In this document: in pieces, positions 24,065-41,006 of the stretch | How the letters are laid out: the number at the start of each line of letters is the position of its first letter | Numbering within the stretch: position 1 is the first letter of the stretch | Assembly: GCF_024223415.1 (NCBI RefSeq) | Contig: NZ_CP100500.1 | Length of the DNA: 64,000 bases | Reading direction: 5' to 3' (one strand) | Source of the DNA: Escherichia coli | Lineage (GTDB): Bacteria; Pseudomonadota; Gammaproteobacteria; Enterobacterales; Enterobacteriaceae | The notes under the pieces: generated by a model | The model's input: the letters and a program-made list of their open reading frames with translations, nothing else | What the model was told of the DNA's origin: nothing | The model's database searches: none | Position numbers and translations under genes: made by a program

Positions 24065-24796
24065 ATGGCTGAATTACTGTTAGGCGTCAACATTGACCAT
24101 ATCGCTACGCTGCGCAACGCGCGCGGTACCGCTTACCCGGATCCGGTGCAGGCCGCGTTTATTGCCGAGCAGGCGGGGGCGGACGGCATTACCGTGCATT
24201 TACGTGAAGATCGCCGCCACATTACTGACCGCGATGTGCGCATCCTGCGTCAGACGCTGGATACCCGCATGAATCTGGAGATGGCGGTGACCGAAGAGAT
24301 GCTGGCGATCGCGGTTGAGACGAAGCCGCATTTTTGCTGCCTGGTACCAGAAAAGCGTCAGGAAGTAACAACCGAAGGCGGCCTGGACGTTGCAGGGCAG
24401 CGTGACAAAATGCGCGATGCCTGCAAACGTCTGGCGGATGCCGGGATTCAGGTTTCTCTGTTTATCGACGCCGATGAAGAGCAGATCAAAGCTGCGGCAG
24501 AGGTTGGCGCACCGTTTATCGAGATCCACACCGGTTGCTATGCTGATGCCAAAACTGACGCCGAACAGGCGCAAGAGCTGGCGCGTATCGCCAAAGCCGC
24601 GACCTTTGCCGCTAGTCTCGGTTTGAAAGTTAACGCTGGACACGGTCTGACCTATCACAACGTAAAAGCCATTGCCGCCATCCCTGAGATGCACGAACTG
24701 AATATCGGTCATGCCATTATTGGTCGTGCAGTGATGACCGGACTGAAAGATGCGGTGGCAGAAATGAAGCGCCTGATGCTGGAAGCGCGTGGCTAA
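24065..24796 (+). CDS. pdxJ: pyridoxine 5'-phosphate synthase
   Basis: ORF 24050..24796; start [21 protein letters not shown]... gives 243 aa. Confidence 0.95.
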
Positions 24797-25176
24797 TGGC
24801 AATATTAGGTTTAGGCACGGATATCGTAGAGATCGCTCGCATAGAAGCAGTGATCGCCCGATCCGGTGAGCGCCTGGCACGCCGCGTATTAAGCGATAAC
24901 GAATGGGAAATTTGGAAAACGCACCACCAGCCGGTGCGTTTTCTGGCGAAACGCTTTGCCGTAAAAGAAGCCGCAGCAAAAGCGTTTGGCACCGGGATCC
25001 GCAATGGTCTGGCGTTTAATCAGTTTGAAGTATTTAACGATGAGCTTGGTAAGCCACGGCTGCGACTGTGGGGCGAGGCATTAAAACTGGCGGAAAAGCT
25101 GGGCGTTGCAAATATGCATGTGACGCTGGCCGATGAGCGCCACTATGCTTGCGCCACGGTAATTATTGAAAGTTAA
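24796..25176 (+). CDS. acpS: holo-[acyl-carrier-protein] synthase
   Basis: 126 aa; [32 protein letters not shown]... Confidence 0.96.
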
Positions 25177-25202
25177 AAATAATACCGTTCTCTTTAAAAA
25201 GT

Positions 25203-25240
25203 AAAACCCCCGAACTGGTAAGGAACGGGGGTTTTACTTT
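25203..25240. terminator. acpS terminator hairpin (probably also terminates the antisense sRNA OhsC)
   Basis: 10-bp stem aaaacccccg/cgggggtttt with 13-nt loop; T tracts on both strands. Confidence 0.7.
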
Positions 25241-25290
25241 GTAACTTTAATTTAGTGCAGCACGCACCCTCAACAACAGCGATTATGGAT
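25205..25290 (-). ncRNA. ohsC: OhsC-like antitoxin sRNA of the shoB/ohsC type I TA locus (boundaries approximate)
   Basis: A 24-nt segment at 25254..25277 is, on the minus strand, complementary to 25502..25525 in the shoB 5' leader; the two mismatches both become G.U wobble pairs. Placement matches remembered literature that OhsC is divergent from shoB with short complementarity. Ends not determined. Confidence 0.5.
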
Positions 25291-25596
25291 CAGGGTAGTT
25301 ATCTTTTACAAGCAACTTGCAATCTTTATCATAAAAACTCGAGCCTTTACGAAGAAAGCGATATTGATGGCAAGATTAACGTGACCGCCAATTCGTAAGT
25401 ACATTAAAATTGGTTTCGTTATTGGCGATTTTGCTGTGCTTTACACCATGCCACAGAATTCCCCCATTGAAACGAGTGGTGTCGTCAAAGCTCTGGTGTG
25501 GAGTGCAGCATGCACCCTCAATAACTCGCACGTTCAGTTTTGGGGAGATGTAAGGGCTAATCTGAACGGCTGCATTCCTTGTTTAAGGAAAAACGA

Positions 25597-25677
25597 ATGA
25601 CTGATTGCCGATACCTTATTAAACGGGCCATTAAAATCATCATTGCTGTTTTACAGCTGATCCTTCTGTTCTTATAA
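25597..25677 (+). CDS. shoB: type I toxin ShoB (26-aa hydrophobic peptide)
   Basis: Short ORF not in the six-frame track: ATG 25597, translation MTDCRYLIKRAIKIIIAVLQLILLFL, stop 25675..25677. Matches remembered ShoB and its K-12 position between acpS and yfhL. Confidence 0.85.
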   Translation: MTDCRYLIKRAIKIIIAVLQLILLFL

Positions 25678-25871
25678 CACAAGGAAACGTACTTAAGGTG
25701 CGTCCGGTGAACCAGTCGAACGCACCTTTAATAACTATAAATAAGTGTCTGGGCAGATACTATATAAATTAACTTAGTGAATGTTTGTGCTAATAATCAT
25801 CAATTAAATAAATATAATAGCGTTAAGGTTTCCCTATAAAATAATTAATACTCTACTTCAGGAGCAGAATA

Positions 25872-26141
<270 letters not shown>

Positions 26142-26340
26142 TTACCGTTAAATCATTTTAAAATCAGTAAGTTGTATCGAGTTTGTATGCTTTACTGTCA
26201 TTAACTTACTGTATGTTGATCCAGTGTATTTAACCTTGATAAACTCAGTCCAGCAACACAAAACCGCAACACATTGCATTTTGTCCCGTAGAAAAGACTT
26301 GTATGTGTGAGCTTGTTTTCTGCGCCTACGCAGATAAGGA

Positions 26341-27744
26341 TTGAGAATGCCGCGCACTGTAACACATAATCCGGATAGCCCCAATAATGACGATGTTTTA
26401 GCCGCTTCTGAAAAATGGGACGCCTGTAAACCCCCCTATACCAGCGCACACATGAAAATCTGTGTTGCTGCCGCCAAAATCATCCTCGCTGCTTCCGGCG
26501 TGGCTCGCCGTTCCAAATACGAAAAAGAGAACTATCTCCGTATCGATTTCAGCAAAGCCGGTAAGGTTACATTTTACGCCGAGTTTCCAAAAAAGATGGG
26601 CCTCAAAGGTAAAAAGCTCGGCGAGTGGCCGGAGCTCGCTATCCAGCTGGCGCGCGAAAAAGCACTAGGTATGGCTGACGGTGGACTGCGGGCAGAGTCC
26701 GTACATGCAGCGCTGGAAATGTACCGGGATGACCTCAAAGCCAAAGTAGCCCGTCAGAAGCTGAGCCCGGACAGTTTCACAACCTATGGGGTGCGTATCG
26801 ACCGGATTAAATCAACGTTCGGCGAGCGCGAGGTGTTCAGCGACGTAACATACAGTCGGCTGGTGGAAGTGCTGGACGAGTGGATCGCCACTCGCTCGAA
26901 CAATAACGCCCTGGAGTTGTTTGCCGAGCTCCGTCGGTTCTGGAAGTTCTGCGCACCTACTCTTTGCAACGGCCGCAATGTTGCCGCCAGTCTGCCAGAT
27001 GATTATGTTTCCTCCCGCGTACAGAAACCCACCCCCACACGGCTTTTTACCGATATTGAGTCAATCGCCCGGCTCTGGCTCAATGTTGCCGCCTGCACCT
27101 CTGTACACCAGAAGAATGCTGTTCGCTTCATGATCATCACCGGAGTTCGTCCGATTAATGTCCATAACCTGCGCTGGGACTACGTTCACGAGGAGGTTGG
27201 TGAAATTGTTTATCCGGAAGGGGTTATCGGCATGCGAGGGGCTATGAAAACACAAAAGGCTTTCCGCCTGCCGATAACGCCTGAGATCCGGCGGATTATC
27301 GACGAGCAGAAAGCCTGGCGTGATTCAGTTCCTGAGTGCAACAGGGATTATGTATTTTTGCAGCCACGTGATCCAATGCAGCCATTTTCAAAACGATCAC
27401 TGGATAAGCTGGTGAAAACATACAGCCCGGACGGGGCTGTAAAAGGAATAAAACATGATGGGACTGTTAAAGGGAAAGACGGTGCATTTAATACGATGTG
27501 CCGTAAATTCCTTAAGAGCAATGTTATTGCCTTGATGAAGGAAAGAGGCTATTCCCGATCAGACCGAAGGGAAATCAGCCTCCTTTGCCTTCACCACTCC
27601 AGCAAGTCAGATGACCCGATGGCAGAACATTACGACTTTTCTGATGAGATTTTACAGGAAGAGATTGCGTTAAAGCGCGAAGCTTTCGAGGCTCACGAGC
27701 GGAGCATACTTGCGCAGGTGGCATTGCTACGGCGGCGAGGTTAA
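26341..27744 (+). CDS. prophage site-specific recombinase (divergent tyrosine integrase); true start may be internal
   Basis: 467-aa ORF at prophage edge next to an AlpA-like excisionase; C-terminal part shows integrase-like elements (ITGVRP..., ...LHHSSKSDDPMAEHY with candidate catalytic Tyr). Family call by eye only. Confidence 0.6.
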   Translation: MRMPRTVTHNPDSPNNDDVLAASEKWDACKPPYTSAHMKICVAAAKIILAASGVARRSKYEKENYLRIDFSKAGKVTFYAEFPKKMGLKGKKLGEWPELAIQLAREKALGMADGGLRAESVHAALEMYRDDLKAKVARQKLSPDSFTTYGVRIDRIKSTFGEREVFSDVTYSRLVEVLDEWIATRSNNNALELFAELRRFWKFCAPTLCNGRNVAASLPDDYVSSRVQKPTPTRLFTDIESIARLWLNVAACTSVHQKNAVRFMIITGVRPINVHNLRWDYVHEEVGEIVYPEGVIGMRGAMKTQKAFRLPITPEIRRIIDEQKAWRDSVPECNRDYVFLQPRDPMQPFSKRSLDKLVKTYSPDGAVKGIKHDGTVKGKDGAFNTMCRKFLKSNVIALMKERGYSRSDRREISLLCLHHSSKSDDPMAEHYDFSDEILQEEIALKREAFEAHERSILAQVALLRRRG

Positions 27745-27941
27745 TACCGGCTGCGACACTTTTGAATAAAAGCGTCGACATTGCGGCGCTCATAACGAAC
27801 TACTTTTGCACTGAAACGAATTGGTGCCAGGATAGCCCGATGACGATGCTTAATATTCCACTCACATAGCGTTTTCTGTGTAATACCTAACTTTTGGCAT
27901 ACTTCATCCGGGGTGAGTAAATCGTCGGGTTTCTCGCTCAT
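27741..27941 (-). CDS. AlpA/Xis-like excisionase / transcriptional regulator
   Basis: ORF 27741..28139; real start at internal Met (MSEKPDDLLTPDEVCQKLGITQKTLCEWN...), 66 aa; AlpA-type HTH; adjacent to the integrase. Confidence 0.7.
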   Translation of the reverse strand: MSEKPDDLLTPDEVCQKLGITQKTLCEWNIKHRHRAILAPIRFSAKVVRYERRNVDAFIQKCRSRY

Positions 27942-29332
27942 GCTATACCTCTCTTTTTCATGGCATCGAGCAGGATGTCCTGCACTGTTCGTTTTGAGTT
28001 GCGCCGCTCTATCACCATTTCGTCCATAGTGTCGGCGGCGATAATGTGGTGAATGAACACCGGGCGGTTGTGTCCGGCCTGAATCTGCCGGGTTGGCCCG
28101 ATGCGTTCGATAATTTGTTGGTACTGCTCCAGATTCCACCAGTGCGAGAAAAACACCAGTATGTTTCCGCCGTCCTGCATGTTCAGGCCGTGGCCCGCGC
28201 TGGCTGGGTGTGCAAAGAGAACAGGAATCTTTCCGGAATTCCAGTCGCGCAGTGTCTGTGGATCCTGGTCGAGGTGACGACCGCGAGGGAATGCTTTAAG
28301 CAAGCGTTCAAGATCGTGTTTCCAGTGATAAGCAACCAGCACAGGTGCGCCAGCTGCTTCGGTCAGTATGCTGTCCAGCGCTTGTAGTTTGGTGTCATGC
28401 AGTTCTGACCAACTTCCGGTGTCGTCTGTGTATACTGCGCCACTGGCGATTTGCAGACATTTCAGTGTCTTTGCCGCGGCGTTCGGTGCTTCGATGCCTT
28501 CGCCATTCAGCTCGAGGAACATTTCCTTTTCCATTTCACGATACTGCTGACGGGCCTTCGGCGGCATATCCACGCGGATTACGTTATGGATGGGGTCTTT
28601 GATATCGAACCAGTCGGCCGCATCCAGCGAGAGGGTCACATCGGCTAATGCTCGCTGTATTTCACCCTGTGAGTGAGCAAAAGGCTCCAGTTTAGTCCAG
28701 CTCTGTCCCGGAAACTGTATCGAGTTGAACCAGCGTGAGGTAAACGCACCGTAAGTGCGCCCGAGACGTTGCCCCTGGTCCACAAACCACGATTGTCCCC
28801 ACAAATCTACCAGGCCGTTCGGTGCTGGCGTACCGGTGAGATTTATCCAGCGCCGGACATACTTATGCGCCACTTTGCCCAGCGCCGCTGCGCGCTTACC
28901 ACCACCTCGCAGCCGGAAGGATTTTAGCCGGGTGCTTTCATCCGGAATGACAGTAACGAACGGCCATCGTTCTCCCAATTCCTCAACCAGCCAGACAAGG
29001 TTATCGTAGTTGATGGTGAACACGCTTGCGTTGCTGTTCGCCAGCGCTGCAGAGCGCGCTTTGGCGTTACCAACAATCGGCTGCACCTCAATATTACGCA
29101 GATGCCCCCATTTCAGCGCTTCATCCGGCCATGTGTTTGCTGCAACACGTAGCGGCGCGAGGACCAGCGCGGGGCGTGTTTCTGCCCCTGCCATAAAGAG
29201 ATCTTCCAGCGTAGTGAGCGTTGCCACGGTTTTACCCATCCCCATCCCTGCCCAGATGTTGCCGCGCAGGGTTTCGGTTTCGTGGTTGATGATGAGGTCC
29301 TGGTAAGGGCGAGGCGTGAAAATTTGTCCCAT
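27938..29332 (-). CDS. SNF2/DEAD-like superfamily-2 helicase (phage replication/recombination)
   Basis: 464 aa; Walker A (GMGMGKT), DExx-like box (IPDEST), helicase C-terminal region. Confidence 0.7.
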   Translation of the reverse strand: MGQIFTPRPYQDLIINHETETLRGNIWAGMGMGKTVATLTTLEDLFMAGAETRPALVLAPLRVAANTWPDEALKWGHLRNIEVQPIVGNAKARSAALANSNASVFTINYDNLVWLVEELGERWPFVTVIPDESTRLKSFRLRGGGKRAAALGKVAHKYVRRWINLTGTPAPNGLVDLWGQSWFVDQGQRLGRTYGAFTSRWFNSIQFPGQSWTKLEPFAHSQGEIQRALADVTLSLDAADWFDIKDPIHNVIRVDMPPKARQQYREMEKEMFLELNGEGIEAPNAAAKTLKCLQIASGAVYTDDTGSWSELHDTKLQALDSILTEAAGAPVLVAYHWKHDLERLLKAFPRGRHLDQDPQTLRDWNSGKIPVLFAHPASAGHGLNMQDGGNILVFFSHWWNLEQYQQIIERIGPTRQIQAGHNRPVFIHHIIAADTMDEMVIERRNSKRTVQDILLDAMKKRGIA

Positions 29333-29376
29333 AGTATTTTAGCCAGTAGGGCGCGGGATAATCCCGCGCAAGAATG

Positions 29377-30099
29377 TCAGATTAGATCGGCGTAATAGGT
29401 GAAGTTGCCAAACTGCGGATGCCTCCAGCGCTTGCGGTTACCTTTCGGCGGTGTCGATTCGTTTAACAGCTTTTGAGCTGCTTGTTCGATCGCCGGAAGG
29501 TTAACGAGCAATCCCCGAACACCGGTGTCTGAACGTACCGGTATCCTGGCGAAGCCGATCAATTTCCGGCATGTTGAATCAGATAAACCTGTTTTCCATG
29601 CTGCTTTGCTGACGGGGACATATTCACCTTCAACATGAGATAAATTCGCTGGTGCGGCTGGTTGAGAATAGCCAGTTGCATCAAGACAGGCTTTCATTGT
29701 TGCTTCTGCTACGACGCGAGCAAGCTGGACGATGCCGTCGTTGATCGTAATGCTTGGCGCGGGCGCTGCTGATATTTGAACCTGCTCTTTTTCCCTTTCA
29801 AGTTCTTGCCAGCGGTCAACGATTTGTGCAGTGAATTCAGGACAGAGTTGAGCGACTACAACAATGCTATCGCGTCTGCCTTGTTCTCCTTCAAAGTTAT
29901 ATACTTCATCTTTGACTGTGTGGCCTAAGTTATTGATTCTTTCGATAAACGCCGTTGGCGGTTTTCGTATGATATCGCGCTCGACCAGTCTTTCGATGCT
30001 ACGTTTGACGTCACCCGGACGGCTACCTACCAGATCGGCAATCTCCTTATGGGTCATTGAAAGTTGCTTGGTATCGTTTATCAGTGTTAGAGTATTCAT
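29377..30099 (-). CDS. Rha-family phage regulatory protein
   Basis: 240 aa; N-terminus MNTLTLINDTKQLSMTHKEIADLVGSRPGDVKRSIERLV... typical of Rha. Confidence 0.65.
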   Translation of the reverse strand: MNTLTLINDTKQLSMTHKEIADLVGSRPGDVKRSIERLVERDIIRKPPTAFIERINNLGHTVKDEVYNFEGEQGRRDSIVVVAQLCPEFTAQIVDRWQELEREKEQVQISAAPAPSITINDGIVQLARVVAEATMKACLDATGYSQPAAPANLSHVEGEYVPVSKAAWKTGLSDSTCRKLIGFARIPVRSDTGVRGLLVNLPAIEQAAQKLLNESTPPKGNRKRWRHPQFGNFTYYADLI

Positions 30100-30158
30100 G
30101 CTGTATTCTCCATTCAGTTAAAGACGCGCTGATAGTTACCGCTACCAGTGCGTTTTGT

Positions 30159-30416
30159 TTATTCATCCCACGGCTTGTTTGCAGCCTCCCTTGCGGCCTG
30201 CTGCGCAAAATAAATCAATTCAAAAGCTAACTGTTCTCCTTTTTCCAGCGAACTGAGAAGCCTTGCTGTTTCCAGCATGTCCGCGATATACCCGAAAATA
30301 TCTGCCTGATGTAACTGCGTGATCTTGATAGCCATAGCGTTAACCTCGATGGAACCACTGCGGTCCATTTTAGTAAACCACCGTGGTTTATTGATGTCAA
30401 CACCACCGTGGTGCAT
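30159..30416 (-). CDS. hypothetical phage protein (85 aa)
   Basis: ORF only; divergent from the Arc-like gene across a ~30-bp gap. Confidence 0.4.
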   Translation of the reverse strand: MHHGGVDINKPRWFTKMDRSGSIEVNAMAIKITQLHQADIFGYIADMLETARLLSSLEKGEQLAFELIYFAQQAAREAANKPWDE

Positions 30417-30448
30417 ACTTTGAGAATCGAGTTTATGAGGTAGTTACT

Positions 30449-30763
30449 ATGAGTCGTGAAGATGCGCAGATGAAGATCCGTTTACCTGCGGAACTGAAAG
30501 AATTATTGGAGAATGCAGCCCGTGCTAACGGTCGTTCGTTGAATGCAGAGGTGCTTCAACGCTTAAGATCTTCATTTCCTGCAATAAATAAGCTGGAAAG
30601 CCAGAATACTCATGCGTTTTTATATCTACGACAAGCTGAAGGTATGGGGCTTGGACGCGAAGCTGAATCTTTGCTTAATGAGTGGGGCAAAAATATTGAA
30701 AAAAACACAGAACTCTTAGAAAGACTGCATGAACTCGTAGAAAATCGTTTGGGGAAAAAATAA
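30449..30763 (+). CDS. Arc/MetJ-family ribbon-helix-helix DNA-binding protein
   Basis: 104 aa; N-terminal KIRLPAELKELLENAARANGRSLNAEVLQRL matches the Arc-like RHH pattern. Confidence 0.65.
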   Translation: MSREDAQMKIRLPAELKELLENAARANGRSLNAEVLQRLRSSFPAINKLESQNTHAFLYLRQAEGMGLGREAESLLNEWGKNIEKNTELLERLHELVENRLGKK

Positions 30764-30918
30764 TGTACCGTAACGAAATTGTTACTTAAGGTCTTTAGCT
30801 AGCCTGAATAATATTTCTGCATTTACTGAACGCATATTTTTCTTTGCTGTTTTCTTTAACTCCTCCGCTAATGCGCGGGGGATCCGTAATTTAAACTGTA
30901 AGTGCTCATCTGATTTTT

Positions 30919-31188
30919 TCACAATATCCCCTCCAGATTTTTGCTATCCAGCACCACCACGGTAAAGCCCAGTTTTCGCAGACGTTCATGTTCGCGCAAC
31001 TGGTCAGGTCGTGGTGGTTTGCCTGGCGCTTTGCATTCGACAAAGACGATGCGACCGCCGGGTAGCAGGACAATGCGATCCGGTACCGAGCGGCGACCGG
31101 GAGATACGAACTTAAAGGCCACACCGCCAGCTTTTTTCACTTCAGCGACGAGGTGCTTTTCGATAAGGCTTTCACGTTCACAGGCCAT
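30919..31188 (-). CDS. VRR-NUC domain nuclease
   Basis: 89 aa; HLVAEVKKAGG...RIVLLPGGRIVFVECKAPGKPPRPDQ...KLGFTVVVLD matches the VRR-NUC PD-(D/E)xK pattern. Confidence 0.65.
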   Translation of the reverse strand: MACERESLIEKHLVAEVKKAGGVAFKFVSPGRRSVPDRIVLLPGGRIVFVECKAPGKPPRPDQLREHERLRKLGFTVVVLDSKNLEGIL

Positions 31189-31399
31189 CGTCTGCCACCT
31201 TACGTTTTTCGCGTATGTTCTGCATCAGGCAAAAATCAGATCTGCGCTCACTCCATTCCTGATTGAGCGCGTTACGTGACTGGCGGTTGGCTTTGGCCCA
31301 GACCTTTGCTGCCCGATCGTACGCGCCGGACTGCTCAAGGCACAAAGCCTCCCGTGCAGTCTGGTAATAAAGTGGACTGTCCCGGTATTTAAATGACAT
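31178..31399 (-). CDS. hypothetical small phage protein (73 aa)
   Basis: ORF in operon context; overlaps VRR-NUC gene start. Confidence 0.4.
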   Translation of the reverse strand: MSFKYRDSPLYYQTAREALCLEQSGAYDRAAKVWAKANRQSRNALNQEWSERRSDFCLMQNIREKRKVADDGL

Positions 31400-31410
31400 A
31401 TATTTCGATT

Positions 31411-31898
31411 CCTGTAAAAAGCCCCTGACAGTGCAGGGGCGGGATTGATTTGAATTAACGAGGTAAGGCTGGTGGAATGTATTTGCCGATGCGGTCTTCT
31501 ATCGTTGGCAGAATACACATGCTGTCGTTAAAGCGATCGTGCAGTTTGTAGACCAGTTTCGAATCAGCCATTTCAAGCGCTGGCATTAACTGAGTCTGCC
31601 AGATTTCGTTGATGCGCCGGAAGTTATGACAGATCGCACGAAGATTATTAATGAACATTTCCTTCTCTGCGTCAGTGACTTCTGTTTGTGTTTTCTGAAT
31701 ACGCTTTGTGCTGCCGTTCCGGTAAAAGCGTTCCTGCGCAGCGACAGCCTCATCCACAGTCGGATAACAGCCAACGTATACGTTTTTCTCGCCGTCCCAT
31801 GCATAAGCCCGGTACGGATTGTATTTGCTCCGGTGATGGTAAATCATCTTCGGCAGACATTCCCTGTGCGGCGCCAGTATCGTGGAGGACTGCGGAAC
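31411..31898. repeat. ~490-bp direct repeat, copy A (3' part of BRO-N gene + its terminator)
   Basis: Near-identical to 35504..35990 at DNA and protein level (C-terminal 147 aa plus downstream hairpin gcccctgacagtgcaggggc). Confidence 0.85.
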
Positions 31899-32231
31899 GG
31901 CGGTATCTTTCTCGATAAGGTCAAGCACCCAGCGACGAAATTCTTTGGCTACCGGAGTCGTTGCGAATATTGCTACCAGGTGGGCACCGCGCAGGGAGAA
32001 AACTCGCACATCTTTTTCACGTAAGCTATTGTTTATTCCGTTGAACCTCATTTTGAGGTTGATTGACATACCCGGGGTAAACTCATCTGCGTTGCGGTTG
32101 TATATCTGGGTGATTTTATCGCCGCGCGAATACCCCAGCGCAGTAGCCAGCGTTGCGGCGGTGAACCACTGCCTGCCGTTGTGTTCGGTAGTTTCGAGAA
32201 CGTGAGATTTGAATACGAGTTGGGTACTCAT
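31455..32231 (-). CDS. BRO-N domain antirepressor-like protein with C-terminal AP2-like DNA-binding module
   Basis: ORF 31455..32393; probable start at Met55 (MSTQLVFKSHVLETTEHNGRQWFTAATLATALGY..., BRO-N-like). C-terminal ~147 aa (YRAYAWDGEKNVYVGCYPTVDEAVAAQERF, AP2-like) is nearly identical to the C-terminus of ORF 35547..36311. Confidence 0.65.
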   Translation of the reverse strand: MSTQLVFKSHVLETTEHNGRQWFTAATLATALGYSRGDKITQIYNRNADEFTPGMSINLKMRFNGINNSLREKDVRVFSLRGAHLVAIFATTPVAKEFRRWVLDLIEKDTAVPQSSTILAPHRECLPKMIYHHRSKYNPYRAYAWDGEKNVYVGCYPTVDEAVAAQERFYRNGSTKRIQKTQTEVTDAEKEMFINNLRAICHNFRRINEIWQTQLMPALEMADSKLVYKLHDRFNDSMCILPTIEDRIGKYIPPALPR

Positions 32232-32498
32232 AGTTTTATGTCCTTTGCAATATTTTGAATTCACCCCTTTTGAGAGGGCGGTCAGGCGCTCAAAACCGTG
32301 CAAAGTCGGCGGGCGTATTTCCCTTACGGGTATTGTATTAGCCTCACGCCCGACCATTGAATTCTCAATATCGTGGACATAAAAAATCCGCATGTCTGTC
32401 GGGTGCGGTTTCCGCTTTGCAAGGTGTTTTGAGCACCATGACGCGGAATATAGCCCCGTTAACGCGACATTGTCAAACTGAAGAATTTTACGGATAGC

Positions 32499-32540
32499 AA
32501 AAACCCCCGAACTGGTGAGGAACAGGGGTTTTTACTTTAC
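32499..32540. terminator. hairpin terminator downstream of the TIR-like gene; ~40-nt near-identical copy of the host acpS terminator
   Basis: aaaacccccgaactggtgaggaacaggggtttt versus 25203..25235 aaaacccccgaactggtaaggaacgggggtttt; stem and loop both conserved. Confidence 0.6.
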
Positions 32541-32613
32541 TACTGATTTCGCGGTACGCTGATCTCAAACAGACGAGATTATCACCAGACTTGTAAAGTA
32601 AGCAATGGGCGGA

Positions 32614-33357
32614 TTAAGATGAAGCGTTCGCTATCTGAGCGTCGCTGAATGTGAAACCCGCCTGTTTAAGACGCTGGATTAAGCGGGGTACTGTCTCCCG
32701 AACATGGTCATTAAAGTTGAGATAAAGAATACCGGCGGCATCAGAAGGCTGCTCAAGGTGTTGTTTCTGCAGGATGACCACGTTACTGCGACCGAGTGAA
32801 GATAACAGCATCCCCATTTCTAAAACTACGTTTTGGCGTGCCCTGGGCTGGGCTGCTTCCTGGCCGTCTCTTTTGGCGTATCCCACATCATCGGGAGTGA
32901 GGAGAACAATGCCGAAACGCGTCGCTGTCCGTCCCTGACCAATTTCACGTTCAAGCTCTTCAATTATCGTAAGCCCGGTCCCACCGGTATTCTGCAAAAT
33001 AAAATGGTCAGGTAATCCAAGCTTATGAAGAATAAGTTCAAGCTGCTCTTTTGCTACATGATCGTGACCGTGAACGATGAAAATCTTTTTTGCTGGTTCT
33101 TGCATCATGACTGGAGCGTTACCCAGGTGTTCATTAATAATGGCTTCAACCTCAGGTTTTGCCGCTTGTGAACCCTGAATCAAAATCGTTCCGGTGTGGT
33201 AAAGCGTTATGATGGCACCATTACTTAAACGATAACAATCATGACCGGTTTTGTTTTCTTCTCCGGTAACATCAAATCCGGATTCGACTAAAAATTGACG
33301 AAAAGTATCGACAGCGTATGGGTATTTGAGTGCCATTTCATTGAGTTCCTGCATCAT
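32614..33357 (-). CDS. TIR-like domain protein (resembles the 'predicted nucleotide-binding protein containing TIR-like domain' family) with ~80-aa N-terminal domain of unknown function; candidate defence/abortive-infection effector
   Basis: 247 aa. C-terminal region has KIFIVHGHDH...GIVLLTPDD...QPRARQNVVLEMGMLLSSLGRSNVVIL, which I recognise as the signature of bacterial TIR-like (CAP12/Pycsar-effector-type) domains. From memory, not HMM-verified. Confidence 0.5.
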   Translation of the reverse strand: MMQELNEMALKYPYAVDTFRQFLVESGFDVTGEENKTGHDCYRLSNGAIITLYHTGTILIQGSQAAKPEVEAIINEHLGNAPVMMQEPAKKIFIVHGHDHVAKEQLELILHKLGLPDHFILQNTGGTGLTIIEELEREIGQGRTATRFGIVLLTPDDVGYAKRDGQEAAQPRARQNVVLEMGMLLSSLGRSNVVILQKQHLEQPSDAAGILYLNFNDHVRETVPRLIQRLKQAGFTFSDAQIANASS

Positions 33358-33410
33358 TGTGTTCCTGTAAAGTAAGCAATAGTTAACAAAGTTGCAACGA
33401 CAACGATCAC

Positions 33411-35477
33411 CTAATCTTTTCTGTAACGGTACGCCTCGAATCCTCCGGCGTTTAGTGGAATGCTCGTGGCCCAGTCAGGAACGGTTGCCAGTAACTGGCT
33501 GAGATGTTCTGCTGAGTAATCGGGTGAGTCAGGGGCCTCACTTATAATTTCATCGTGTACCGTCAGCACAATGCTGTAACCGGCATCTTCGATAAGCGGC
33601 ATGTTTCCGGCCAGAACGTCGCGGGCGGCCGCCTGGGTGACGTTCTCCACCAGCTTTCCGCCGTAGGTTTTGAGTCGTTGCCATTTACGCGAATAAGAGT
33701 TAACACCCATATAGGTGATATCCCCTTTTTCGATAACCGGAGACGGGTAGCATACAGCGCGTCCGGATGGTAGCTGTATGCGCAGCCACGCGCCATCGCG
33801 GCGGATTTTAAGATAACCGCAATACAATGTTTTTTGCGGTGTGGCGATTGCAGTGCGGACGGTGCGCTCCAGTTCGTACCAGAAATCGCAGGTCGCCGGG
33901 TGCGCCCTGCGCCACAGGCGCTTGAGCGAGTCACATGCGATGAATACACGCTCGGACAGGCCAAAGGTCGACTTACGTTTAACCGATTCGTCGTACCAGC
34001 TTTTCGCCTCGCGGATAACATCGCGGGGAATGTTTGGCAGTGCGGCGTTCGCCAGCTCGTCGAGATCGAGACCGTAAACCAGAGCAAAAGTGATGAAAGC
34101 CGATACACCACCTCCATAACCCAGACCGAGTTCCATGACTTTACCGATCTGACGCATGTGTTTATCAACATCATCTGGTGCAATATCGAAAGCTTTTGCA
34201 TACGCCAGTTTATATAAGTCCGGACCCGTTCCGGCGTCGTACTCTCTGAATGCATTCAGTTTCCATTCTTCTCCCGCCAGCCATGCCAGCATACGGCCTT
34301 CAATGTTCGACAAGTCACTTACCACCAGTTTTTTGCCTGTTGGCGCGATAATGCAGCCACGTAACGCTGAACTGGTTAGTTCCATGATATTGTCAAACAG
34401 CAGGTCTGCACATCCGGCTTTCAGTGCTTCGATGCCTTCGTCTATTTGTTCCTGTTTTAGTGAAGGGCGGGGAAGGTTCTGGGGCTGGAATAGCCGTCCG
34501 GCCCAACGACCGGTACGTGACGCCCCGCAGAACTGTAGCGTACCGCGTAAGCGCCCGTCGTGGCTTACGCCTTTCATCAGTGCCTTGTATTTACTGGTGC
34601 TGGTAGTACTGGCCTGCAGGCGGATAGCCAGCAGTTCTTTCACGGCAGATGGTAAATTGGGGTCGGCAATACGACGTTCCAGAGTACTGCGTTGCATGTC
34701 TGGTAGCTCCACACCGTAGGATTCAACAATGTGCTTAATCAACGCGTCCCGTTGTGTGGCTGCCTGCACTTCGCCATCAGTCATTTCCTGTGTACGCTTT
34801 GCCAGGCGCTTTTGCTCCTGGTCTACCGCTTCGATCGCAGCGCGCGCGAGTTGAATGTCCATGCAGACGCCCCGGTCGTTGATCTGCTGATCACGATGCC
34901 AGAGTGCCAGTTCTGTCCCCTGATAATTCCACTTCGGCAGACGTTTATAGACTTCGCGCATTGCCTCGATATCCAGTCCGGCGTAAGCAACAAAGCGCCG
35001 CCATTCTTCCGGGTGGGTTTTGCTGGTGGCCCGGCGCAGTTTGCTGTTTTTCGGGCGTGGTTTGCACAGTAGCTGAATTAGTGACTTGCCTTCTTTATCC
35101 TTCGCTTTGTCCTGCGGGACGCCCAGCACTTCGCAAAGAGCGCCCAGCGCCCCCGGAAGACCATGCGCCAGCGCCTGCACCATTGTGTCGCGCCAGCGTT
35201 CAGTAGCTGGTGACATGTCTGGCATACAATGACGAAGTATCGTGCGGTCAAAGTGCGAATTGTGCGCCCAAACCTCCACATCCGGGTTTTTGAGTGCGAG
35301 ACGTAATTCCGGGGGGATTTTTTCGCCTGCGGTCAGGTCCCACACCTGCACGGGATCGTTATTGATGGCCCAGGCAAAAAGCATAATTTCAGCGCCTTCT
35401 GCATATGCGTGGGTACCGTTTTTTATCGGTATTTCAGAGAAGGTTTCAAGATCGAGCCAGAGAATGTTTGCAGGCAA
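33411..35477 (-). CDS. family A DNA polymerase with 3'-5' exonuclease domain (phage-type)
   Basis: 688 aa; Exo I motif (LDLETFS), exo motif YAGLDI, polymerase motif B-like ([16 protein letters not shown]), motif C (TVHDEII). Confidence 0.8.
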
Positions 35478-35503
35478 AACAGGACCCTCCGTAAATTAAA
35501 CGG

Positions 35504-35990
35504 CTACAAAAAGCCCCTGACAGTGCAGGGGCGGGATTGATTTGAATTAACGAGGTAAGGCTGGTGGAATGTATCTGCCGATGCGGTCTTCTATGGTCGG
35601 CAGAATGCACATGCTGTCGCTGAAGCGGTCATGCAACTGGTAAACCAGTTTAGAATCCATTTTTTCGAGAGCAGGCATTAACTGCGCCCGCCAGATTTCG
35701 TTGATGCGCCGGAAGTTATGACAGACGGCGCGGAGATTGTTGATGAACATTTCCTTCTCTGCGTCAGTGACTTCTGTCTGTGTTTTCTGAATACGCTTTG
35801 TGCTGCCATTCCGATAGAAGCGTTCCTGAGCAGCAACAGCCTCATCCACGGTTGGATAGCACCCTACGTAAACGCTCTTCTCTCCGTTCCATGCGTAGGC
35901 TCTGTACGGGTTGTATTTGCTCCGGTGATGGTAAACCATCTTCGGCAGACACTCCCTGTGTGGCGCCAGTATCGTGGAGGATTGCTGGTG
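35504..35990. repeat. ~490-bp direct repeat, copy B (3' part of AntA-type gene + its terminator)
   Basis: See copy A. Confidence 0.85.
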
Positions 35991-36311
35991 CAGTTTGCGT
36001 TCGCACTCGATGAAGTATCGGCGGATCTGGCGGCCTTTTTCGTTGCGCTCCACCATCGCCAGTTCTTTGGCCGTGTCGAGGGTGAGGTGGTAGTCCTTAC
36101 AAAGAACATTTTTACGCTTTCCAGTTTTGGAAAACGTTACGATATAATCCTGATTTTCAACGAATTCATAGTCTGCAATTCGTGATGTAATCCACGCTGC
36201 AAACACTTTCCCTACCCCAAGGAATGCGTGCAGATCGCGAGCATTGCAGAGCAGGGTGGTTTCGTTGGCGATAGCGCCGTTGAAAACGGGGATGAGTTGA
36301 GTTGCCATCAC
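35547..36311 (-). CDS. AntA-type antirepressor-like protein with C-terminal AP2-like module (paralogue of 31455..32231)
   Basis: 254 aa; distinct N-terminal domain (NARDLHAFLGVGKVFAAWITSRI...) fused to the same ~147-aa C-terminal module as the BRO-N protein. Confidence 0.65.
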   Translation of the reverse strand: MMATQLIPVFNGAIANETTLLCNARDLHAFLGVGKVFAAWITSRIADYEFVENQDYIVTFSKTGKRKNVLCKDYHLTLDTAKELAMVERNEKGRQIRRYFIECERKLHQQSSTILAPHRECLPKMVYHHRSKYNPYRAYAWNGEKSVYVGCYPTVDEAVAAQERFYRNGSTKRIQKTQTEVTDAEKEMFINNLRAVCHNFRRINEIWRAQLMPALEKMDSKLVYQLHDRFSDSMCILPTIEDRIGRYIPPALPR

Positions 36312-36691
36312 AGTTACCTCTAACGGTGAAATTCACCGCCACCACTGAGTTGCAAATCTCATATGGGTGGCGAACTGACGAGGTTTGCAATACCGGCGTT
36401 AGAGGAAACCGGCGCGCCGAAGCGCCCCCGCCAGCCCGCCATAATGCGAACGTGGCAAAGCTTGCGACAATAAAAAAGACGCTGGCGCGTCTGGTGTCGC
36501 CCCTAACAATTCCGGGTTGCAAATCCCGATCTCCATTTGGGAGATTCGGTGAGCATAAACCGGAAGGGGGCGATGAGTCAATATCGGGGTAGCAGGGCGA
36601 CTGGGTGCTAACCAGAACAATACAGGTAGCTCCGGGCATATTCCCCTTTGCAAAAACACCCGGCGTTTAACCGGGCGTCTGTGAAGCAGGA

Positions 36692-37240
36692 TTAAATCAG
36701 TGCTTCAGCATCAGCACCTTCGCTGATATCGTCGAAATCGTCAGCGCTTGCCACTCCGCCGCCAGCGAATGCATCGCCGTCTCGCAGGAACTGGACTCCG
36801 CCGAGTGAGGCATTAATGCGTTTACCGAAATTATTGTCCTGTGCCCAGATATCGATAACGGCGTTTACATAGCACCCTGCATAGGGACGTCCATCAGCCT
36901 GAGTAAGTGGCGAACGATCGCGATCAAGAACAGCCGGGCGCGCTTTGTTAGCAGCATTCAGGAAGAAATTACCGGGGAAACCTTCATACTCTGCTTTTTC
37001 ATCGCCGTCATGCAGGCACAGATTGAGTTTCTTCTCCAGTTGGTTATAAACAGCCTCCCACTTCTCTCCCCATTTTTCCTTTGCGACCTGCTTCATTGCT
37101 TTACGGATTTCTTCCAGTTGTGGGTGTTCGGGAGACATTAAAAATACAGCGGAGAAACGCGGATCGCCTTCGCCGTTTACAGTTTTAGCTTCAAACAGCG
37201 CAGGAAAAGCCAGACGAACATTGTTCAGCTTCAGTTTCAT
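36692..37240 (-). CDS. phage single-stranded DNA-binding protein (DUF2815-like)
   Basis: 182 aa; MKLKLNNVRLAFPALFEAKTVNGEGDPRFSAVF... pattern typical of phage SSB of this family; acidic C-terminal tail. Confidence 0.6.
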   Translation of the reverse strand: MKLKLNNVRLAFPALFEAKTVNGEGDPRFSAVFLMSPEHPQLEEIRKAMKQVAKEKWGEKWEAVYNQLEKKLNLCLHDGDEKAEYEGFPGNFFLNAANKARPAVLDRDRSPLTQADGRPYAGCYVNAVIDIWAQDNNFGKRINASLGGVQFLRDGDAFAGGGVASADDFDDISEGADAEALI

Positions 37241-37255
37241 TATATGTCTCCTTAA

Positions 37256-38560
37256 TCAGATGAGGTCAGCGGCGAGCGCGTCGTCGGACACGTCATCGAA
37301 ATCATTTACAGGGTTAATATTGAGTGCGGGGCGCGGATCTGAATCAGGAACGACGGTGGGTTTACCGTCCGCTCGTGTTATCAGGGCCTCGACTTTTGGC
37401 CAGCGGCGCGGACTGGCTTTTTTGATGAGTTTTTCTGCTTTGGCAGGGCTAATCAGTTTAAAGTCGAAAACTTCTTCAGTTTTATACCTGAACTGATCCT
37501 TCAGAAGAGCTCGAGCTGCTTCCTCATCACTCCAGGTCCGGTTACCTTGTTTTCCTGTTACCAGTTTAAACCCCGGTACCGTATGCCCGGCATGGAGTTC
37601 ATTGTGAACCCGGTCACGTAGCGCTTTGCAAAAAGACTCAATCAGGTCAACATGGCTGTAAATGTCTGCCAGTTGTTCAGCGGTCAGTAGTGGTACACGC
37701 TTAACGGCATCTGCGAGTTGCTCGCCAACGGGTCTGCTCAGGTCAACGAAGTCGTCCGCAACGGCGTTAAGTCTGGCCTGTGCTTCTGCTGAACACAGCC
37801 CACCTTTTGCTTTACAGAAGAGGCACTGTTTCTCGCCTGGTGTGAAGTTTTCAGGTGGCAGGGTTTCGACGCCTTCGCAATCGGCGATGTTGAACATCAC
37901 GATCACACTGGCGGCAGCTTCCTGCGCCCGTTTGCCGAATGCCTGCAGTTCCTCCACCGTCAGGGACCACTCTGAAACGTGGTTAATCCGCGGCTGGTGG
38001 ATGAACAGGCGCACCGTCTCGAAGTCGTACAGAAGGCTGAACTGCTCGAGCACGCCCAGGGCATACAGCTGCAACTGCTCGTTCTGCTCAGCGTCGACAC
38101 GCACTCCCTTACCGTATTTCAGGTCGTGGATCTGCAGTTCGTTACCCGCGATGATTATGCAGTCGGCAGTTCCGAAAGAGTCTTCCACACCGACGATGTG
38201 GGAGAAGTCTACGCGTTGCTCAACCAGCAGCGTGTTGCCCTGTGCCAGTGACCAGACTGTATCAACATACCGGCCAACGGCTTCGACCATTTCCTCATCC
38301 ACCTGTGGGCCAGATGTATCATCAGGATTTGCGCGAAGGGGGTATGAGCCGAGAAACATAGAAACATTGCATCCGGCGTAGTGTTCCGGGTGACTTTGCC
38401 TGTTTCGCAGGACTTTTTCTGCAAGCGCGTGCGCCGCAGTACCTTCAACAGCAAAGGATGTTTCTTTGTCAGGCTGAGTGGACTCCAGCGCCAGACTGCC
38501 GCTACAACGCATCCATCTGTGGGCGGCTGATGGAGATAATTTTGCATGAACCTCGGGCAT
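37256..38560 (-). CDS. PD-(D/E)xK exonuclease, Cas4/RecB-like (DUF2800-like)
   Basis: 434 aa; nuclease motif (IHDLKYGKG), N-terminal Cys plus C-terminal CxxC cluster ([11 protein letters not shown]) suggests an Fe-S nuclease. Confidence 0.6.
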
Positions 38561-38562
38561 AA

Positions 38563-39486: not shown

Positions 39487-39665
39487 ACTGTGGTCCTCGC
39501 TACAAGGAGAATGAAAGTGATGATCAGGCCAAGTGCAGTGGCAACGACCAGACCTGTCATCAAATCGAAGTGTTTACGGCGATAACGGAGAACATCGCGC
39601 CCCGTCAGTCGATGGATGTGTTCAGGTTTCATCGGTTGTATTCCTTTTTTCATATCGGGGAGCAC
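39483..39665 (-). CDS. small membrane protein (60 aa)
   Basis: Single predicted TM helix (LMTGLVVATALGLIITFILLVA); overlaps the stop of the upstream gene. Confidence 0.4.
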   Translation of the reverse strand: MLPDMKKGIQPMKPEHIHRLTGRDVLRYRRKHFDLMTGLVVATALGLIITFILLVARTTV

Positions 39666-39748
39666 GCTGTTGCGAGTGCGCTTTCAGACATAAAAAAGCC
39701 CGTCACTTGCGGCGGGCAAAGACTACACACAGCAATTACATGGATGAT

Positions 39749-39943
39749 TCAGTTGGTATTGTGCGTACGTGGTACCACGAGGTTGAAGCGGACACGCCAG
39801 TGCGTTGCAATGGTATGCAGGAAAGCACCACATCTAGGGCAGTGCTCATAACATTCGTTGATTTGGTATCGTTTTGGCTTTGGTGTCTGAAGTTGTGTTT
39901 GGCAAGCAGGGCATTCACCTTTGAGCGGTTTATACGTTTTCAC
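39749..39943 (-). CDS. zinc-ribbon protein (64 aa)
   Basis: Two CxxC pairs (CPACQ...CPRCG). Confidence 0.45.
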   Translation of the reverse strand: MKTYKPLKGECPACQTQLQTPKPKRYQINECYEHCPRCGAFLHTIATHWRVRFNLVVPRTHNTN

Positions 39944-40978: not shown

Positions 40979-41006
40979 ACCACATAAATTGTAGGAGACA
41001 ATAATC

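What the first reader, a model, noticed from the sequence alone, without database searches (positions are those of the whole stretch)
25203..25680. shoB/ohsC type I toxin-antitoxin locus: unannotated 26-aa toxin ORF and wobble-tolerant antisense complementarity
The six-frame track misses the 26-codon ORF MTDCRYLIKRAIKIIIAVLQLILLFL (25597..25677), which matches the ShoB toxin. A 24-nt element occurs twice in direct orientation (25254..25277 and 25502..25525) with two C/T differences. If the upstream copy is transcribed on the minus strand (OhsC), it pairs with the shoB leader copy with both differences as G.U wobbles, which is a compact explanation of trans-acting antitoxin pairing. The locus abuts the prophage insertion side of yfhL.
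Basis: partly seen in the sequence, partly recalled or inferred. Interest (0 to 1): 0.4.

Follow-up and report, generated by a model that had tools for sequence, protein, structure and literature searches.

The report
Known shoB/ohsC toxin-antitoxin locus

Summary
The ORF at 25597..25677 (+) encodes MTDCRYLIKRAIKIIIAVLQLILLFL. That is ShoB, 25/26 identical to K-12 b4687 and identical to RefSeq WP_000128773.1. Rfam ohsC_RNA (RF02495) matches 25198..25274 on the minus strand at 103 bits (gathering score 50). The K-12 ohsC annotation maps to 25196..25274 (-).

The 24-nt direct repeat exists, with two C/T differences, and both become G·U pairs. One correction: OhsC starts at 25274, so only 21 of the 24 nt are in the sRNA. 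The duplex is 21 bp (19 Watson-Crick plus 2 G·U, about -42.6 kcal/mol). The G·U at OhsC nt 1 is shared with K-12. The internal G·U (OhsC nt 12) is a strain variant, present in about 608 of 5,426 complete E. coli genomes.

Across Escherichia that position is A-U, G·U or G-C. A second major allele changes 7 positions in both sites together, 6 of them to the same base. This is natural covariation supporting the pairing.

The target lies 75 nt upstream of the AUG, so repression is indirect, by a structure switch or standby-site competition. A prophage is inserted at the 5' end of yfhL, on the side away from shoB.

Novelty: already known. Interest: low.

The parts
25196..25274 (-). ohsC gene: 79-nt OhsC antitoxin sRNA (5' end at 25274)
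   Evidence: Rfam RF02495 ohsC_RNA matches 25198..25274 (-) at 103.1 bits, gathering score 50, full-length model. K-12 ohsC b4608 (2700520-2700598) maps here through the pairwise alignment. It differs from K-12 OhsC at 3 positions (nt 12, 21, 34).
25254..25274 (-). OhsC nt 1-21: antisense (seed) region pairing with the shoB 5' UTR
   Evidence: This is the transcribed part of the upstream repeat copy. RNAduplex gives 21 bp at -42.6 kcal/mol. Covariation across 13 haplotypes.
25194..25244 (.). G+C-rich palindromic hairpin: OhsC intrinsic terminator, probably also the acpS terminator (bidirectional)
   Evidence: Inverted repeat I1, 19-nt arms, 95% complementary. It forms the OhsC 3' stem-loop followed by a U-run. 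The sub-threshold Rfam hit on the + strand (37.6 bits) comes from this palindrome, as also noted in PMC11264685.
25282..25311 (-). ohsC promoter: -35 TTGTAA (25311-25306), -10 CATAAT (25287-25282)
   Evidence: Promoter scan. The same hexamers are listed for MG1655 ohsC in PMC11264685 Table 2. The -10 ends 8 nt upstream of the 5' end at 25274.
25381..25410 (+). shoB promoter: -35 GTGACC (25381-25386), -10 TAAAAT (25405-25410)
   Evidence: Promoter scan. The same hexamers are listed for shoB in PMC11264685 Table 2.
25417..25740 (+). Inferred shoB mRNA (about 320 nt; 5' UTR about 180 nt). The start is inferred from the -10 box and the end from the terminator hairpin; neither is mapped in this strain.
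   Evidence: Inference from promoter position and inverted repeat I2. The literature reports a long structured 5' UTR and several 5' ends (PMC5066626, PMC7708055).
25432..25448 (+). 5'-UTR element 1: pairs with element 2 in the full-length, translationally inert mRNA
   Evidence: MFE fold of the +1 mRNA. 17-bp helix, 99.1% of cells paired in 13 haplotypes, with only one-sided wobble-compatible changes.
25494..25510 (+). 5'-UTR element 2: alternative partner of element 1 (full-length mRNA) or element 3 (processed mRNA); overlaps the OhsC target
   Evidence: Folds; pair counts.
25502..25522 (+). OhsC target site in the shoB 5' UTR (downstream repeat copy, paired part); ends 75 nt upstream of the AUG
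   Evidence: RNase III cleavage in the shoB/OhsC duplex region in vivo in MG1655 is reported in PMC6212723.
25569..25580 (+). Element 3 / anti-SD: pairs with element 2 (25569-25578, SD open) or with the SD (25575-25580, SD closed)
   Evidence: MFE of +42 versus +1 and OhsC-blocked forms. (10-bp helix, 99.2% paired). (SD hairpin invariant).
25585..25590 (+). shoB Shine-Dalgarno AAGGAA
   Evidence: Read directly from the sequence. RBS AAGGAA is 100% conserved in E. coli per PMC11264685 Table 2.
25597..25677 (+). shoB CDS: 26-aa hydrophobic toxin ShoB, rare V11A variant
   Evidence: RefSeq annotation 'type I toxin-antitoxin system toxin ShoB' (WP_000128773.1) on identical DNA. The GCC (Ala11) haplotype occurs in 6 of 5,426 genomes.
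25690..25733 (+). Hairpin downstream of shoB, the likely shoB terminator
   Evidence: Inverted repeat I2, 17-nt arms, 82% complementary. It is present in all folds. It has no strong U-run and the terminator scan did not call it, so this is an inference.
24796..25176 (+). acpS (context, upstream flank)
   Evidence: ORF list; RefSeq annotations of matching loci.
25872..26132 (-). yfhL ferredoxin (context); its first 10 nt (26123-26132) are supplied by the inserted prophage
   Evidence: ORF list. BLAST of the K-12 and O78 loci against the window stops at 26122.
26341..27744 (+). Tyrosine integrase at the edge of a prophage inserted into the 5' end of yfhL (context)
   Evidence: PHROGs phrog_1 integrase, E 8e-26. 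Phage DNA polymerase, primase-helicase, terminase, portal and major head genes lie further on. The same junction occurs in 159 of 5,425 genomes.

Best explanation
The region is the chromosomal shoB/ohsC type I toxin-antitoxin locus of E. coli, in its usual place between acpS and yfhL. shoB (+ strand) gives an mRNA of about 320 nt with a 5' UTR of about 180 nt and a 26-codon ORF for a hydrophobic membrane toxin. ohsC is transcribed divergently (- strand) into a 79-nt sRNA ending in a strong terminator hairpin. Because the two genes diverge, a direct repeat in the DNA makes the two transcripts complementary. OhsC nt 1-21 pair with shoB 25502-25522 as 19 Watson-Crick plus 2 G·U pairs. The target lies 75 nt upstream of the start codon, so OhsC cannot occlude the ribosome-binding site directly. 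The mechanism I consider most likely is the dinQ/agrB-type structure switch. In the full-length mRNA a 5' element (25432-48) sequesters element 2 (25494-25510), and the SD is locked in a hairpin with the anti-SD (25575-80). 5' processing at about +41, reported for K-12, frees element 2, which then pairs with element 3/anti-SD (25569-78) and opens the SD. OhsC binding to element 2 hands the anti-SD back to the SD and shuts translation, and the duplex is also an RNase III substrate. Status of each step: gene identities, the complementarity and its evolutionary conservation are shown here. Toxicity, repression by OhsC, the processed 5' end and RNase III cleavage are shown in the literature for K-12 only. 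The structure switch is inferred.
For: Identity: ShoB is 25/26 identical to K-12 and identical to RefSeq WP_000128773.1. Rfam ohsC_RNA scores 103 bits against a gathering score of 50. The K-12 b4608 and b4687 coordinates map onto the window. Synteny is acpS-ohsC-shoB-yfhL. The locus is present in 5,425 of 5,426 complete E. coli genomes. Both promoters and the RBS are identical to those tabulated for MG1655.

Pairing: the repeat is non-random, and the 21-bp duplex scores -42.6 kcal/mol. Across 13 distinct Escherichia haplotypes 93.8% of cells are paired, against 23-50% when the register is slid. Five pairs carry compensatory double changes. OhsC nt 12 shows A-U, G·U and G-C. K-12 and O157 differ at the same 7 of 20 positions in both sites, 6 of them to the same base. 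Divergence is 35% in the sites against 5.6% elsewhere in the locus. Cognate haplotype combinations account for 5,192 of 5,425 genomes.

Literature: 19-nt complementarity between the 5' end of OhsC and the shoB 5' UTR (PMC3919570). RNase III cleavage in the duplex region in vivo (PMC6212723). An inert full-length mRNA and an active form shortened by about 40-41 nt, with a dinQ-like four-element model proposed for shoB (PMC5066626, PMC7708055).

Switch: MFE folds of the +1, +42 and OhsC-blocked +42 forms give SD closed, open and closed respectively. The helices are 99% paired across haplotypes.
Against: No transcript data exist for this strain. The OhsC 5' end and the shoB start, end and processing site are transferred from K-12 or inferred from promoter boxes. 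The structure switch rests on MFE predictions, and in the ensemble the change is small: mean P(unpaired) of the SD is 0.10, 0.18 and 0.05 for the three forms. The intramolecular helices show only one-sided, wobble-compatible changes and no compensatory double changes, so the comparative data are compatible with the model but do not prove it. The five compensatory pairs in the intermolecular duplex all separate the same two alleles, so they may reflect a single evolutionary event. The accessible literature calls the OhsC-shoB pairing 'predicted' (PMC3919570), and PMC11264685 says its requirements have not been tested experimentally. The rare V11A change in ShoB has not been tested for toxicity.
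Confidence: 0.95

Rival explanations
1. Same locus, different mechanism: OhsC represses by competing with standby ribosomes. It occupies a single-stranded loading site far upstream of a structured RBS, as IstR-1 does on tisB, possibly next to a pseudoknot, rather than by re-closing an SD hairpin.
For: The target lies 75 nt upstream of the AUG. In the +42 fold the 3' half of the target (25514-25522) is unpaired, as expected of a landing site. The ensemble SD accessibility hardly changes between forms, which fits the switch model poorly. The standby model and predicted pseudoknots are proposed for shoB in PMC7708055 and PMC4147584.
Against: The MFE folds reproduce a clean closed/open/closed SD pattern with a 10-bp element 2:element 3 helix that overlaps the OhsC site. 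That helix is retained in all 13 haplotypes. No standby or pseudoknot experiment exists for shoB in the papers I could read.
Confidence: 0.3
2. Same locus, but OhsC acts mainly by triggering RNase III cleavage and decay of shoB mRNA, and translation control is secondary.
For: A 19-21 bp perfect or near-perfect duplex is a suitable RNase III substrate. RNase III cleavage sites were detected in the shoB/OhsC duplex region in vivo (PMC6212723).
Against: In the related divergent systems tisB/istR-1 and dinQ/agrB, repression persists without RNase III according to the reviews read. Reviews list ShoB/OhsC under 'inhibit protein synthesis' (PMC4147584). Nothing in the sequence discriminates between the two.
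Confidence: 0.15
3. The 24-nt direct repeat is a duplication relic or chance similarity with no role, and OhsC, if made, does not need it.
For: Only that short two-copy repeats are often chance matches. A third weak copy (25712-25735, 63% identical) is such a case.
Against: No chance matches occurred in shuffles. The two copies change together in the second E. coli allele: 7 changes at the same 7 positions, 6 to the same base, roughly 1e-7 by my own hand estimate if the two sites changed independently (position list). All one-sided differences are wobble-compatible or lie at the duplex end. The third copy does not covary.
Confidence: 0.02

Closest known systems
shoB/ohsC of E. coli K-12 MG1655 (b4687/b4608; Fozo et al. 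2008; Rfam RF02495)
   Same: Orthologous locus in the same chromosomal position (acpS-ohsC-shoB-yfhL). The intergenic region is 96% identical by megablast of K-12-derived genomes. Both promoters and the RBS are identical. The layout is the same: divergent genes, with the 5' end of OhsC pairing to the shoB 5' UTR.
   Different: OhsC nt 12 is G instead of A (an internal G·U instead of A-U). OhsC nt 21 is U instead of A, which adds one A-U pair and gives 21 bp instead of 20. OhsC nt 34 also differs. ShoB carries V11A, found in 6 of 5,426 genomes. A prophage sits on the far side of yfhL.
Second shoB/ohsC allele in the sequenced O157:H7, 83972, UPEC and APEC strains
   Same: Same genes, same register of pairing, same flanking constant bases (GUGCAGCA... 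and ...CAA).
   Different: The core of the pairing region is replaced in both partners (OhsC GUUGGAAUCGUGUGCUGCAC; shoB GUGCAGCACUCGAUUCCAAU), with one internal U·U mismatch. The predicted cognate duplex is -34 kcal/mol, against about -22 for cross-allele combinations.
dinQ/agrB (E. coli)
   Same: Divergent type I pair with a long 5' UTR. The full-length mRNA is inert and a 5'-processed form is active. Four sequence elements give mutually exclusive structures, and the antisense RNA binds element 2 so that the SD hairpin re-forms. This model was explicitly suggested for shoB (PMC5066626) and is reproduced by the folds.
   Different: No sequence homology. The model is shown experimentally for dinQ but only predicted for shoB. 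agrB pairs over 34 nt, against 19-21 nt here.
tisB/istR-1 and zorO/orzO (E. coli)
   Same: 'Non-traditional' type I systems: divergent genes, 18-21 nt of complementarity between the sRNA 5' end and the toxin 5' UTR far upstream of the RBS, and activation by 5' processing (PMC3919570, PMC4147584, PMC7708055).
   Different: Unrelated toxins and RNAs. tisB is LexA-controlled and works through a demonstrated standby site. Wild-type OhsC does not repress zorO (PMC3919570).

Membership tests
shoB/ohsC type I toxin-antitoxin locus | 26-aa hydrophobic ShoB toxin ORF | tested here: met
   25597..25677 encodes MTDCRYLIKRAIKIIIAVLQLILLFL, 25/26 identical to K-12 ShoB and identical to RefSeq WP_000128773.1 'toxin ShoB'. 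Pfam and NCBIfam hold no ShoB model and returned 0 hits, which is uninformative.
shoB/ohsC type I toxin-antitoxin locus | OhsC sRNA gene (Rfam RF02495) upstream of shoB and transcribed divergently from it | tested here: met
   103.1 bits against a gathering score of 50, full-length, on the minus strand at 25198..25274. The K-12 b4608 coordinates map to 25196..25274.
shoB/ohsC type I toxin-antitoxin locus | 5' end of OhsC complementary (about 19 nt) to the shoB 5' UTR, upstream of the RBS | tested here: met
   OhsC nt 1-21 pair with 25502-25522: 19 Watson-Crick plus 2 G·U, -42.6 kcal/mol. Covariation. The literature definition is in PMC3919570.
shoB/ohsC type I toxin-antitoxin locus | Conserved chromosomal position between acpS and yfhL, with conserved promoters and RBS | tested here: met
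   The hexamers and RBS equal those in PMC11264685 Table 2.
shoB/ohsC type I toxin-antitoxin locus | Both RNAs are transcribed (OhsC about 79 nt; shoB mRNA with a long 5' UTR and a processed form) | not testable with these tools
   Only promoter and terminator motifs and orthology to K-12 are available. There are no expression data for this strain.
shoB/ohsC type I toxin-antitoxin locus | ShoB is toxic when overproduced and OhsC represses its synthesis | not testable with these tools
   Reported for K-12 (Fozo et al. 2008, as cited in PMC3919570, PMC5066626 and PMC4147584). The V11A variant is untested.
dinQ/agrB-type structure-switch regulation (works like, not member of) | Four elements forming mutually exclusive helices (1:2 plus 3:4 closed; 2:3 open), with the antisense RNA binding element 2 | tested here: inconclusive
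   MFE folds give the expected closed/open/closed SD pattern, but the ensemble probabilities change little. The helices are 99% paired across 13 haplotypes with only one-sided changes.

The most novel reading that the evidence does not exclude
The OhsC-shoB pairing core behaves as a co-evolving specificity determinant. E. coli carries two major alleles in which 7 positions changed in both partners together: 5 compensatory pairs, one A-U to G-C change with a G·U intermediate, and one U·U mismatch. Divergence is 35% in the core against 5.6% in the rest of the locus. Cross-allele duplexes are predicted to be about 12-20 kcal/mol weaker than cognate ones. The window's internal G·U is the intermediate state of the A-U / G·U / G-C series and is carried by about 11% of genomes. 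[quoted passage not shown] This may therefore be the first explicit natural-covariation evidence that the predicted pairing is selected in vivo. It may also hint at diversifying selection on antitoxin specificity.
Probability: 0.5. Interest if true: 0.3.

Novelty: already known. Interest (0 to 1): 0.12.

Why it matters
As a finding it matters little. It re-identifies a characterised, RefSeq- and Rfam-annotated locus that is present in 5,425 of 5,426 complete E. coli genomes. Its value is as a positive control: a reader without tools recognised a 26-codon toxin gene and the logic by which a direct repeat between divergent genes gives antisense pairing.

The by-product has modest value for people who study type I toxin-antitoxin systems. 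OhsC-shoB base pairing is still described as 'predicted', and the natural variation summarised here supports it: two co-varying alleles, with A-U, G·U and G-C at one position. That variation defines ready-made allele-swap experiments.

Tried and rejected
- **Protein family scans.** Pfam and NCBIfam returned no hits for the 26-aa peptide. Neither library holds a ShoB model, so this is uninformative and identity rests on direct comparison and the RefSeq annotation.
- **Third weak repeat copy.** The copy at 25712-25735 (63% identical) was considered as a second OhsC site. I rejected it because it is the 3' arm of the shoB terminator hairpin and does not change in allele-2 strains.
- **Other Rfam hits.** The matches around 25195-25310 (Thr/His leaders, IS128 and others, and the + strand ohsC hit at 37.6 bits) are all below their gathering scores and are driven by the palindromic terminator.
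- **Terminator scan.** The hairpins were identified through the repeat finder and folding instead.
- **Primary paper and review.** Fozo et al. 2008 (PMC2597788) and the 2012 review are not held. What they show is cited second-hand, and I cannot exclude that the two-allele covariation is already described there.
- **E. albertii and E. whittamii.** Their loci stop before the ohsC side, so the cognate pairs could not be scored.
- **Mechanical ORFs.** ORFs in the intergenic region, such as the 47-aa ORF at 25255..25398, have no support and were not pursued.

Full report
**1. What is in the sequence**

The ORF at 25597..25677 (+) translates to MTDCRYLIKRAIKIIIAVLQLILLFL. It is preceded by AAGGAA at 25585-25590.

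The 24-nt element occurs twice in direct orientation: 25254-25277 AGTGCAGCACGCACCCTCAACAAC and 25502-25525 AGTGCAGCATGCACCCTCAATAAC. These are the only two matches in the 64-kb window with up to 3 mismatches. None of 100 dinucleotide-preserving shuffles gave two matches. The two differences (25263/25511 and 25274/25522) are C upstream and T downstream.

**2. Identity of the locus**

- Rfam ohsC_RNA (RF02495) matches 25198..25274 on the minus strand over the full model, at 103.1 bits against a gathering score of 50.
- In MG1655 the region between acpS and yfhL carries ohsC (b4608, 2700520-2700598) and shoB (b4687).
- Aligning the K-12 intergenic region to the window maps OhsC to 25196..25274 (-) and the shoB CDS to 25597..25677 (+).
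- K-12 ShoB is MTDCRYLIKRVIKIIIAVLQLILLFL, so the window protein is 25/26 identical, with V11A.
- E. coli O78 strain 3 has 100% identical DNA, annotated by RefSeq as 'type I toxin-antitoxin system toxin ShoB', WP_000128773.1.
- The 695-nt intergenic region is found in 5,425 of 5,426 complete E. coli genomes, always on the chromosome.
- The promoter-like sites found by the scan are GTGACC-18-TAAAAT at 25381..25410 (+) and TTGTAA-18-CATAAT at 25311..25282 (-). These are exactly the shoB and ohsC promoter hexamers tabulated for MG1655 in PMC11264685.
- Pfam and NCBIfam hold no ShoB model.

**3. The pairing, corrected**

OhsC nt 1-21 (GUUGAGGGUGCGUGCUGCACU) pair with shoB mRNA 25502-25522. The duplex has 19 Watson-Crick pairs plus G·U at OhsC nt 1 and nt 12, and RNAduplex gives -42.6 kcal/mol.

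In K-12 nt 12 is A (A-U) and nt 21 is A (unpaired). That gives the published 19 nt of perfect complementarity (PMC3919570) plus the terminal G·U, at -41.4 kcal/mol. The internal wobble costs about 0.4 kcal/mol: the otherwise K-12-like haplotype of strain 98210 scores -41.0. The target ends 75 nt upstream of the AUG.

**4. Is 'wobble-tolerant' supported?**

I fetched ten further E. coli loci spread over the identity range. One scan of species-representative genomes added six Escherichia loci: two E. coli representatives, E. albertii, E. whittamii and two unnamed Escherichia species.

*Two major alleles exist.*

| Allele | ohsC side (+ strand) | shoB side (+ strand) | Sequenced strains carrying it |
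|---|---|---|---|
| 1 | GTGCAGCATGCACCCTCAAC | GTGCAGCATGCACCCTCAAT | K-12, S3, 53, MS 119-7 |
| 2 | GTGCAGCACACGATTCCAAC | GTGCAGCACTCGATTCCAAT | O157:H7, 83972, UPEC-455U, APEC17, VCSW7, E500002 |

The window and strain 98210 carry allele 1 with T25263 changed to C on the ohsC side.

K-12 and O157 differ at the same 7 of 20 positions in both sites. Six of those changes are to the same base, and the seventh gives a U·U mismatch. Divergence is 35% in the sites against 37/655 (5.6%) elsewhere in the locus. If the two sites had changed independently, I estimate by hand that this coincidence has a probability of order 1e-7. Predicted duplex energies are -41 to -43 kcal/mol (allele 1 cognate), -34 (allele 2 cognate) and -21 to -24 (cross-allele).

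*Formal pair count on 13 distinct haplotypes.*

- 93.8% of cells are paired, against 23-50% when the register is slid.
- Five pairs carry changes on both sides.
- Four pairs vary on one side only and stay paired: nt 1 is G·U or A-U; nt 10 is G-C or G·U; nt 12 is G·U, A-U or G-C; nt 16 is U-A or U·G.
- The only mismatches are the allele-2 U·U, one end-proximal C·U in a single strain, and nt 21, which pairs only in the window haplotype.
- Caveat: the five double changes all separate the same two alleles and may be one event.

*Joint haplotype counts.* These came from 64-nt synthetic queries (two 32-mers joined) against 5,426 complete genomes.

| ohsC-side type | shoB-side type | Genomes |
|---|---|---|
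| K-12 | allele 1 | 2,989 |
| allele 2 | allele 2 | 1,595 |
| window type (A25254, C25263); includes E. coli HS and O145:H28 | allele 1 | 109 |
| 98210 type (T25254, C25263) | allele 1 | 499 |

The internal G·U is therefore carried by about 608 genomes (11%). It also occurs in three of the four other Escherichia loci that cover the ohsC side. It is the intermediate of an A-U / G·U / G-C series. [quoted passage not shown] I could not read Fozo 2008 or the 2012 review, so I cannot say whether this covariation has been described before.

**5. How it most likely works**

Reported for K-12 in papers I could read:

- The full-length shoB mRNA is translationally inert, and a 5' end about 40-41 nt downstream gives an active form (PMC5066626; PMC7708055).
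- OhsC pairs far upstream of the RBS (PMC4147584).
- RNase III cuts in the duplex region in vivo (PMC6212723).

Folding the window's RNAs:

- **Inferred +1 mRNA (25417-25740).** 25432-25448 pair with 25494-25510, covering the 5' half of the OhsC site. The SD (25585-25590) is closed by the anti-SD (25575-25580).
- **+42 form.** 25500-25509 pair with 25569-25578 and the SD is unpaired in the MFE structure.
- **+42 form with the OhsC site blocked.** The SD hairpin re-forms.

This is the dinQ-like four-element switch that PMC5066626 proposed for shoB. Support is moderate only. Ensemble SD accessibility changes little (0.10, 0.18 and 0.05). The helices are 99% paired across haplotypes but show only one-sided changes. 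The rivals are standby-site competition, as in tisB/IstR-1, and RNase III-driven decay. They are not mutually exclusive.

**6. Surroundings**

- The OhsC terminator (25194-25244) is a near-perfect palindrome directly after acpS (24796..25176). It probably terminates both genes and explains the sub-threshold plus-strand Rfam hit.
- Homology to K-12 and to the O78 strain stops at 26122, 10 nt inside the 5' end of yfhL (25872..26132, -).
- Beyond that lie a tyrosine integrase (26341..27744), a phage DNA polymerase, a primase-helicase, a large terminase, a portal and a major head protein. A prophage has therefore integrated into the 5' end of yfhL and supplies its first codons.
- The same junction is present in 159 of 5,425 genomes. 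The prophage is next to yfhL, not next to shoB.

**7. Verdict**

The object is the already known shoB/ohsC type I toxin-antitoxin locus, so interest is low. The only mildly new material is the population-level covariation of the pairing core and the rare ShoB V11A variant (6 of 5,426 genomes).

Noticed in passing
window 26123..64000 (integrase 26341..27744; DNA polymerase 33411..35477 (-); primase-helicase 41220..43364; terminase 51674..53659; portal 53846..55438; major head 57375..58403): A prophage is integrated into the 5' end of yfhL. Homology to K-12 stops at 26122, and the phage supplies the first 10 nt of the yfhL CDS. It encodes its own DNA polymerase and primase-helicase. The same yfhL-integrase junction is present in 159 of 5,425 complete E. 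coli genomes, with a best identity of 98.6%, so the window's own genome is not in that set.
   Followed up: partly
window 25255-25274 and 25503-25522; loci L003-L012, L014-L017: E. coli has two co-varying alleles of the OhsC/shoB pairing core. Seven positions changed in both partners; divergence is 35% against 5.6% in the rest of the locus; cross-allele duplexes are predicted to be much weaker. OhsC nt 12 shows A-U, G·U and G-C in different lineages.
   Followed up: yes
window 25627-25629 (codon 11 of shoB): ShoB carries Ala at position 11, where K-12 has Val and one APEC strain has Ile. The exact GCC haplotype occurs in only 6 of 5,426 complete genomes. The same residue is seen in Escherichia sp. 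E1V33.
   Followed up: partly
L002 6674..7371 (E. coli O78 strain 3, NZ_CP084096.1): In the one genome whose shoB/ohsC DNA is 100% identical to the window, an IS1 element sits between shoB and yfhL. The window has no IS1 there.
   Followed up: no
window 25172..25244: The OhsC terminator is an almost perfect palindrome. It gives a sub-threshold ohsC_RNA hit on the opposite strand (37.6 bits) and likely serves as a bidirectional terminator for acpS and ohsC.
   Followed up: partly
window 25712..25735: A third weak copy (63% identical) of the 24-nt element lies in the 3' arm of the shoB terminator hairpin. It does not change in allele-2 strains, so it is probably a chance resemblance.
   Followed up: yes
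L013 (E. albertii NBRC 107761), shoB 5' UTR: The E. albertii target site is GCACGCATCCTC (C at the window's 25511 position and T at 25515), and element 3 has C where E. coli has T at 25575, turning a G·U of the element 2:3 helix into G-C. The held locus stops before ohsC, so the cognate OhsC could not be checked.
   Followed up: no
window 25293-25304 and 25389-25396: Dense strain-to-strain variation lies just upstream of the ohsC -10 box and within the shoB promoter spacer, in the intergenic control region where the literature places two CpxR boxes (PMC11264685, PMC9600279). In these blocks the window resembles K-12 rather than allele 2.
   Followed up: no
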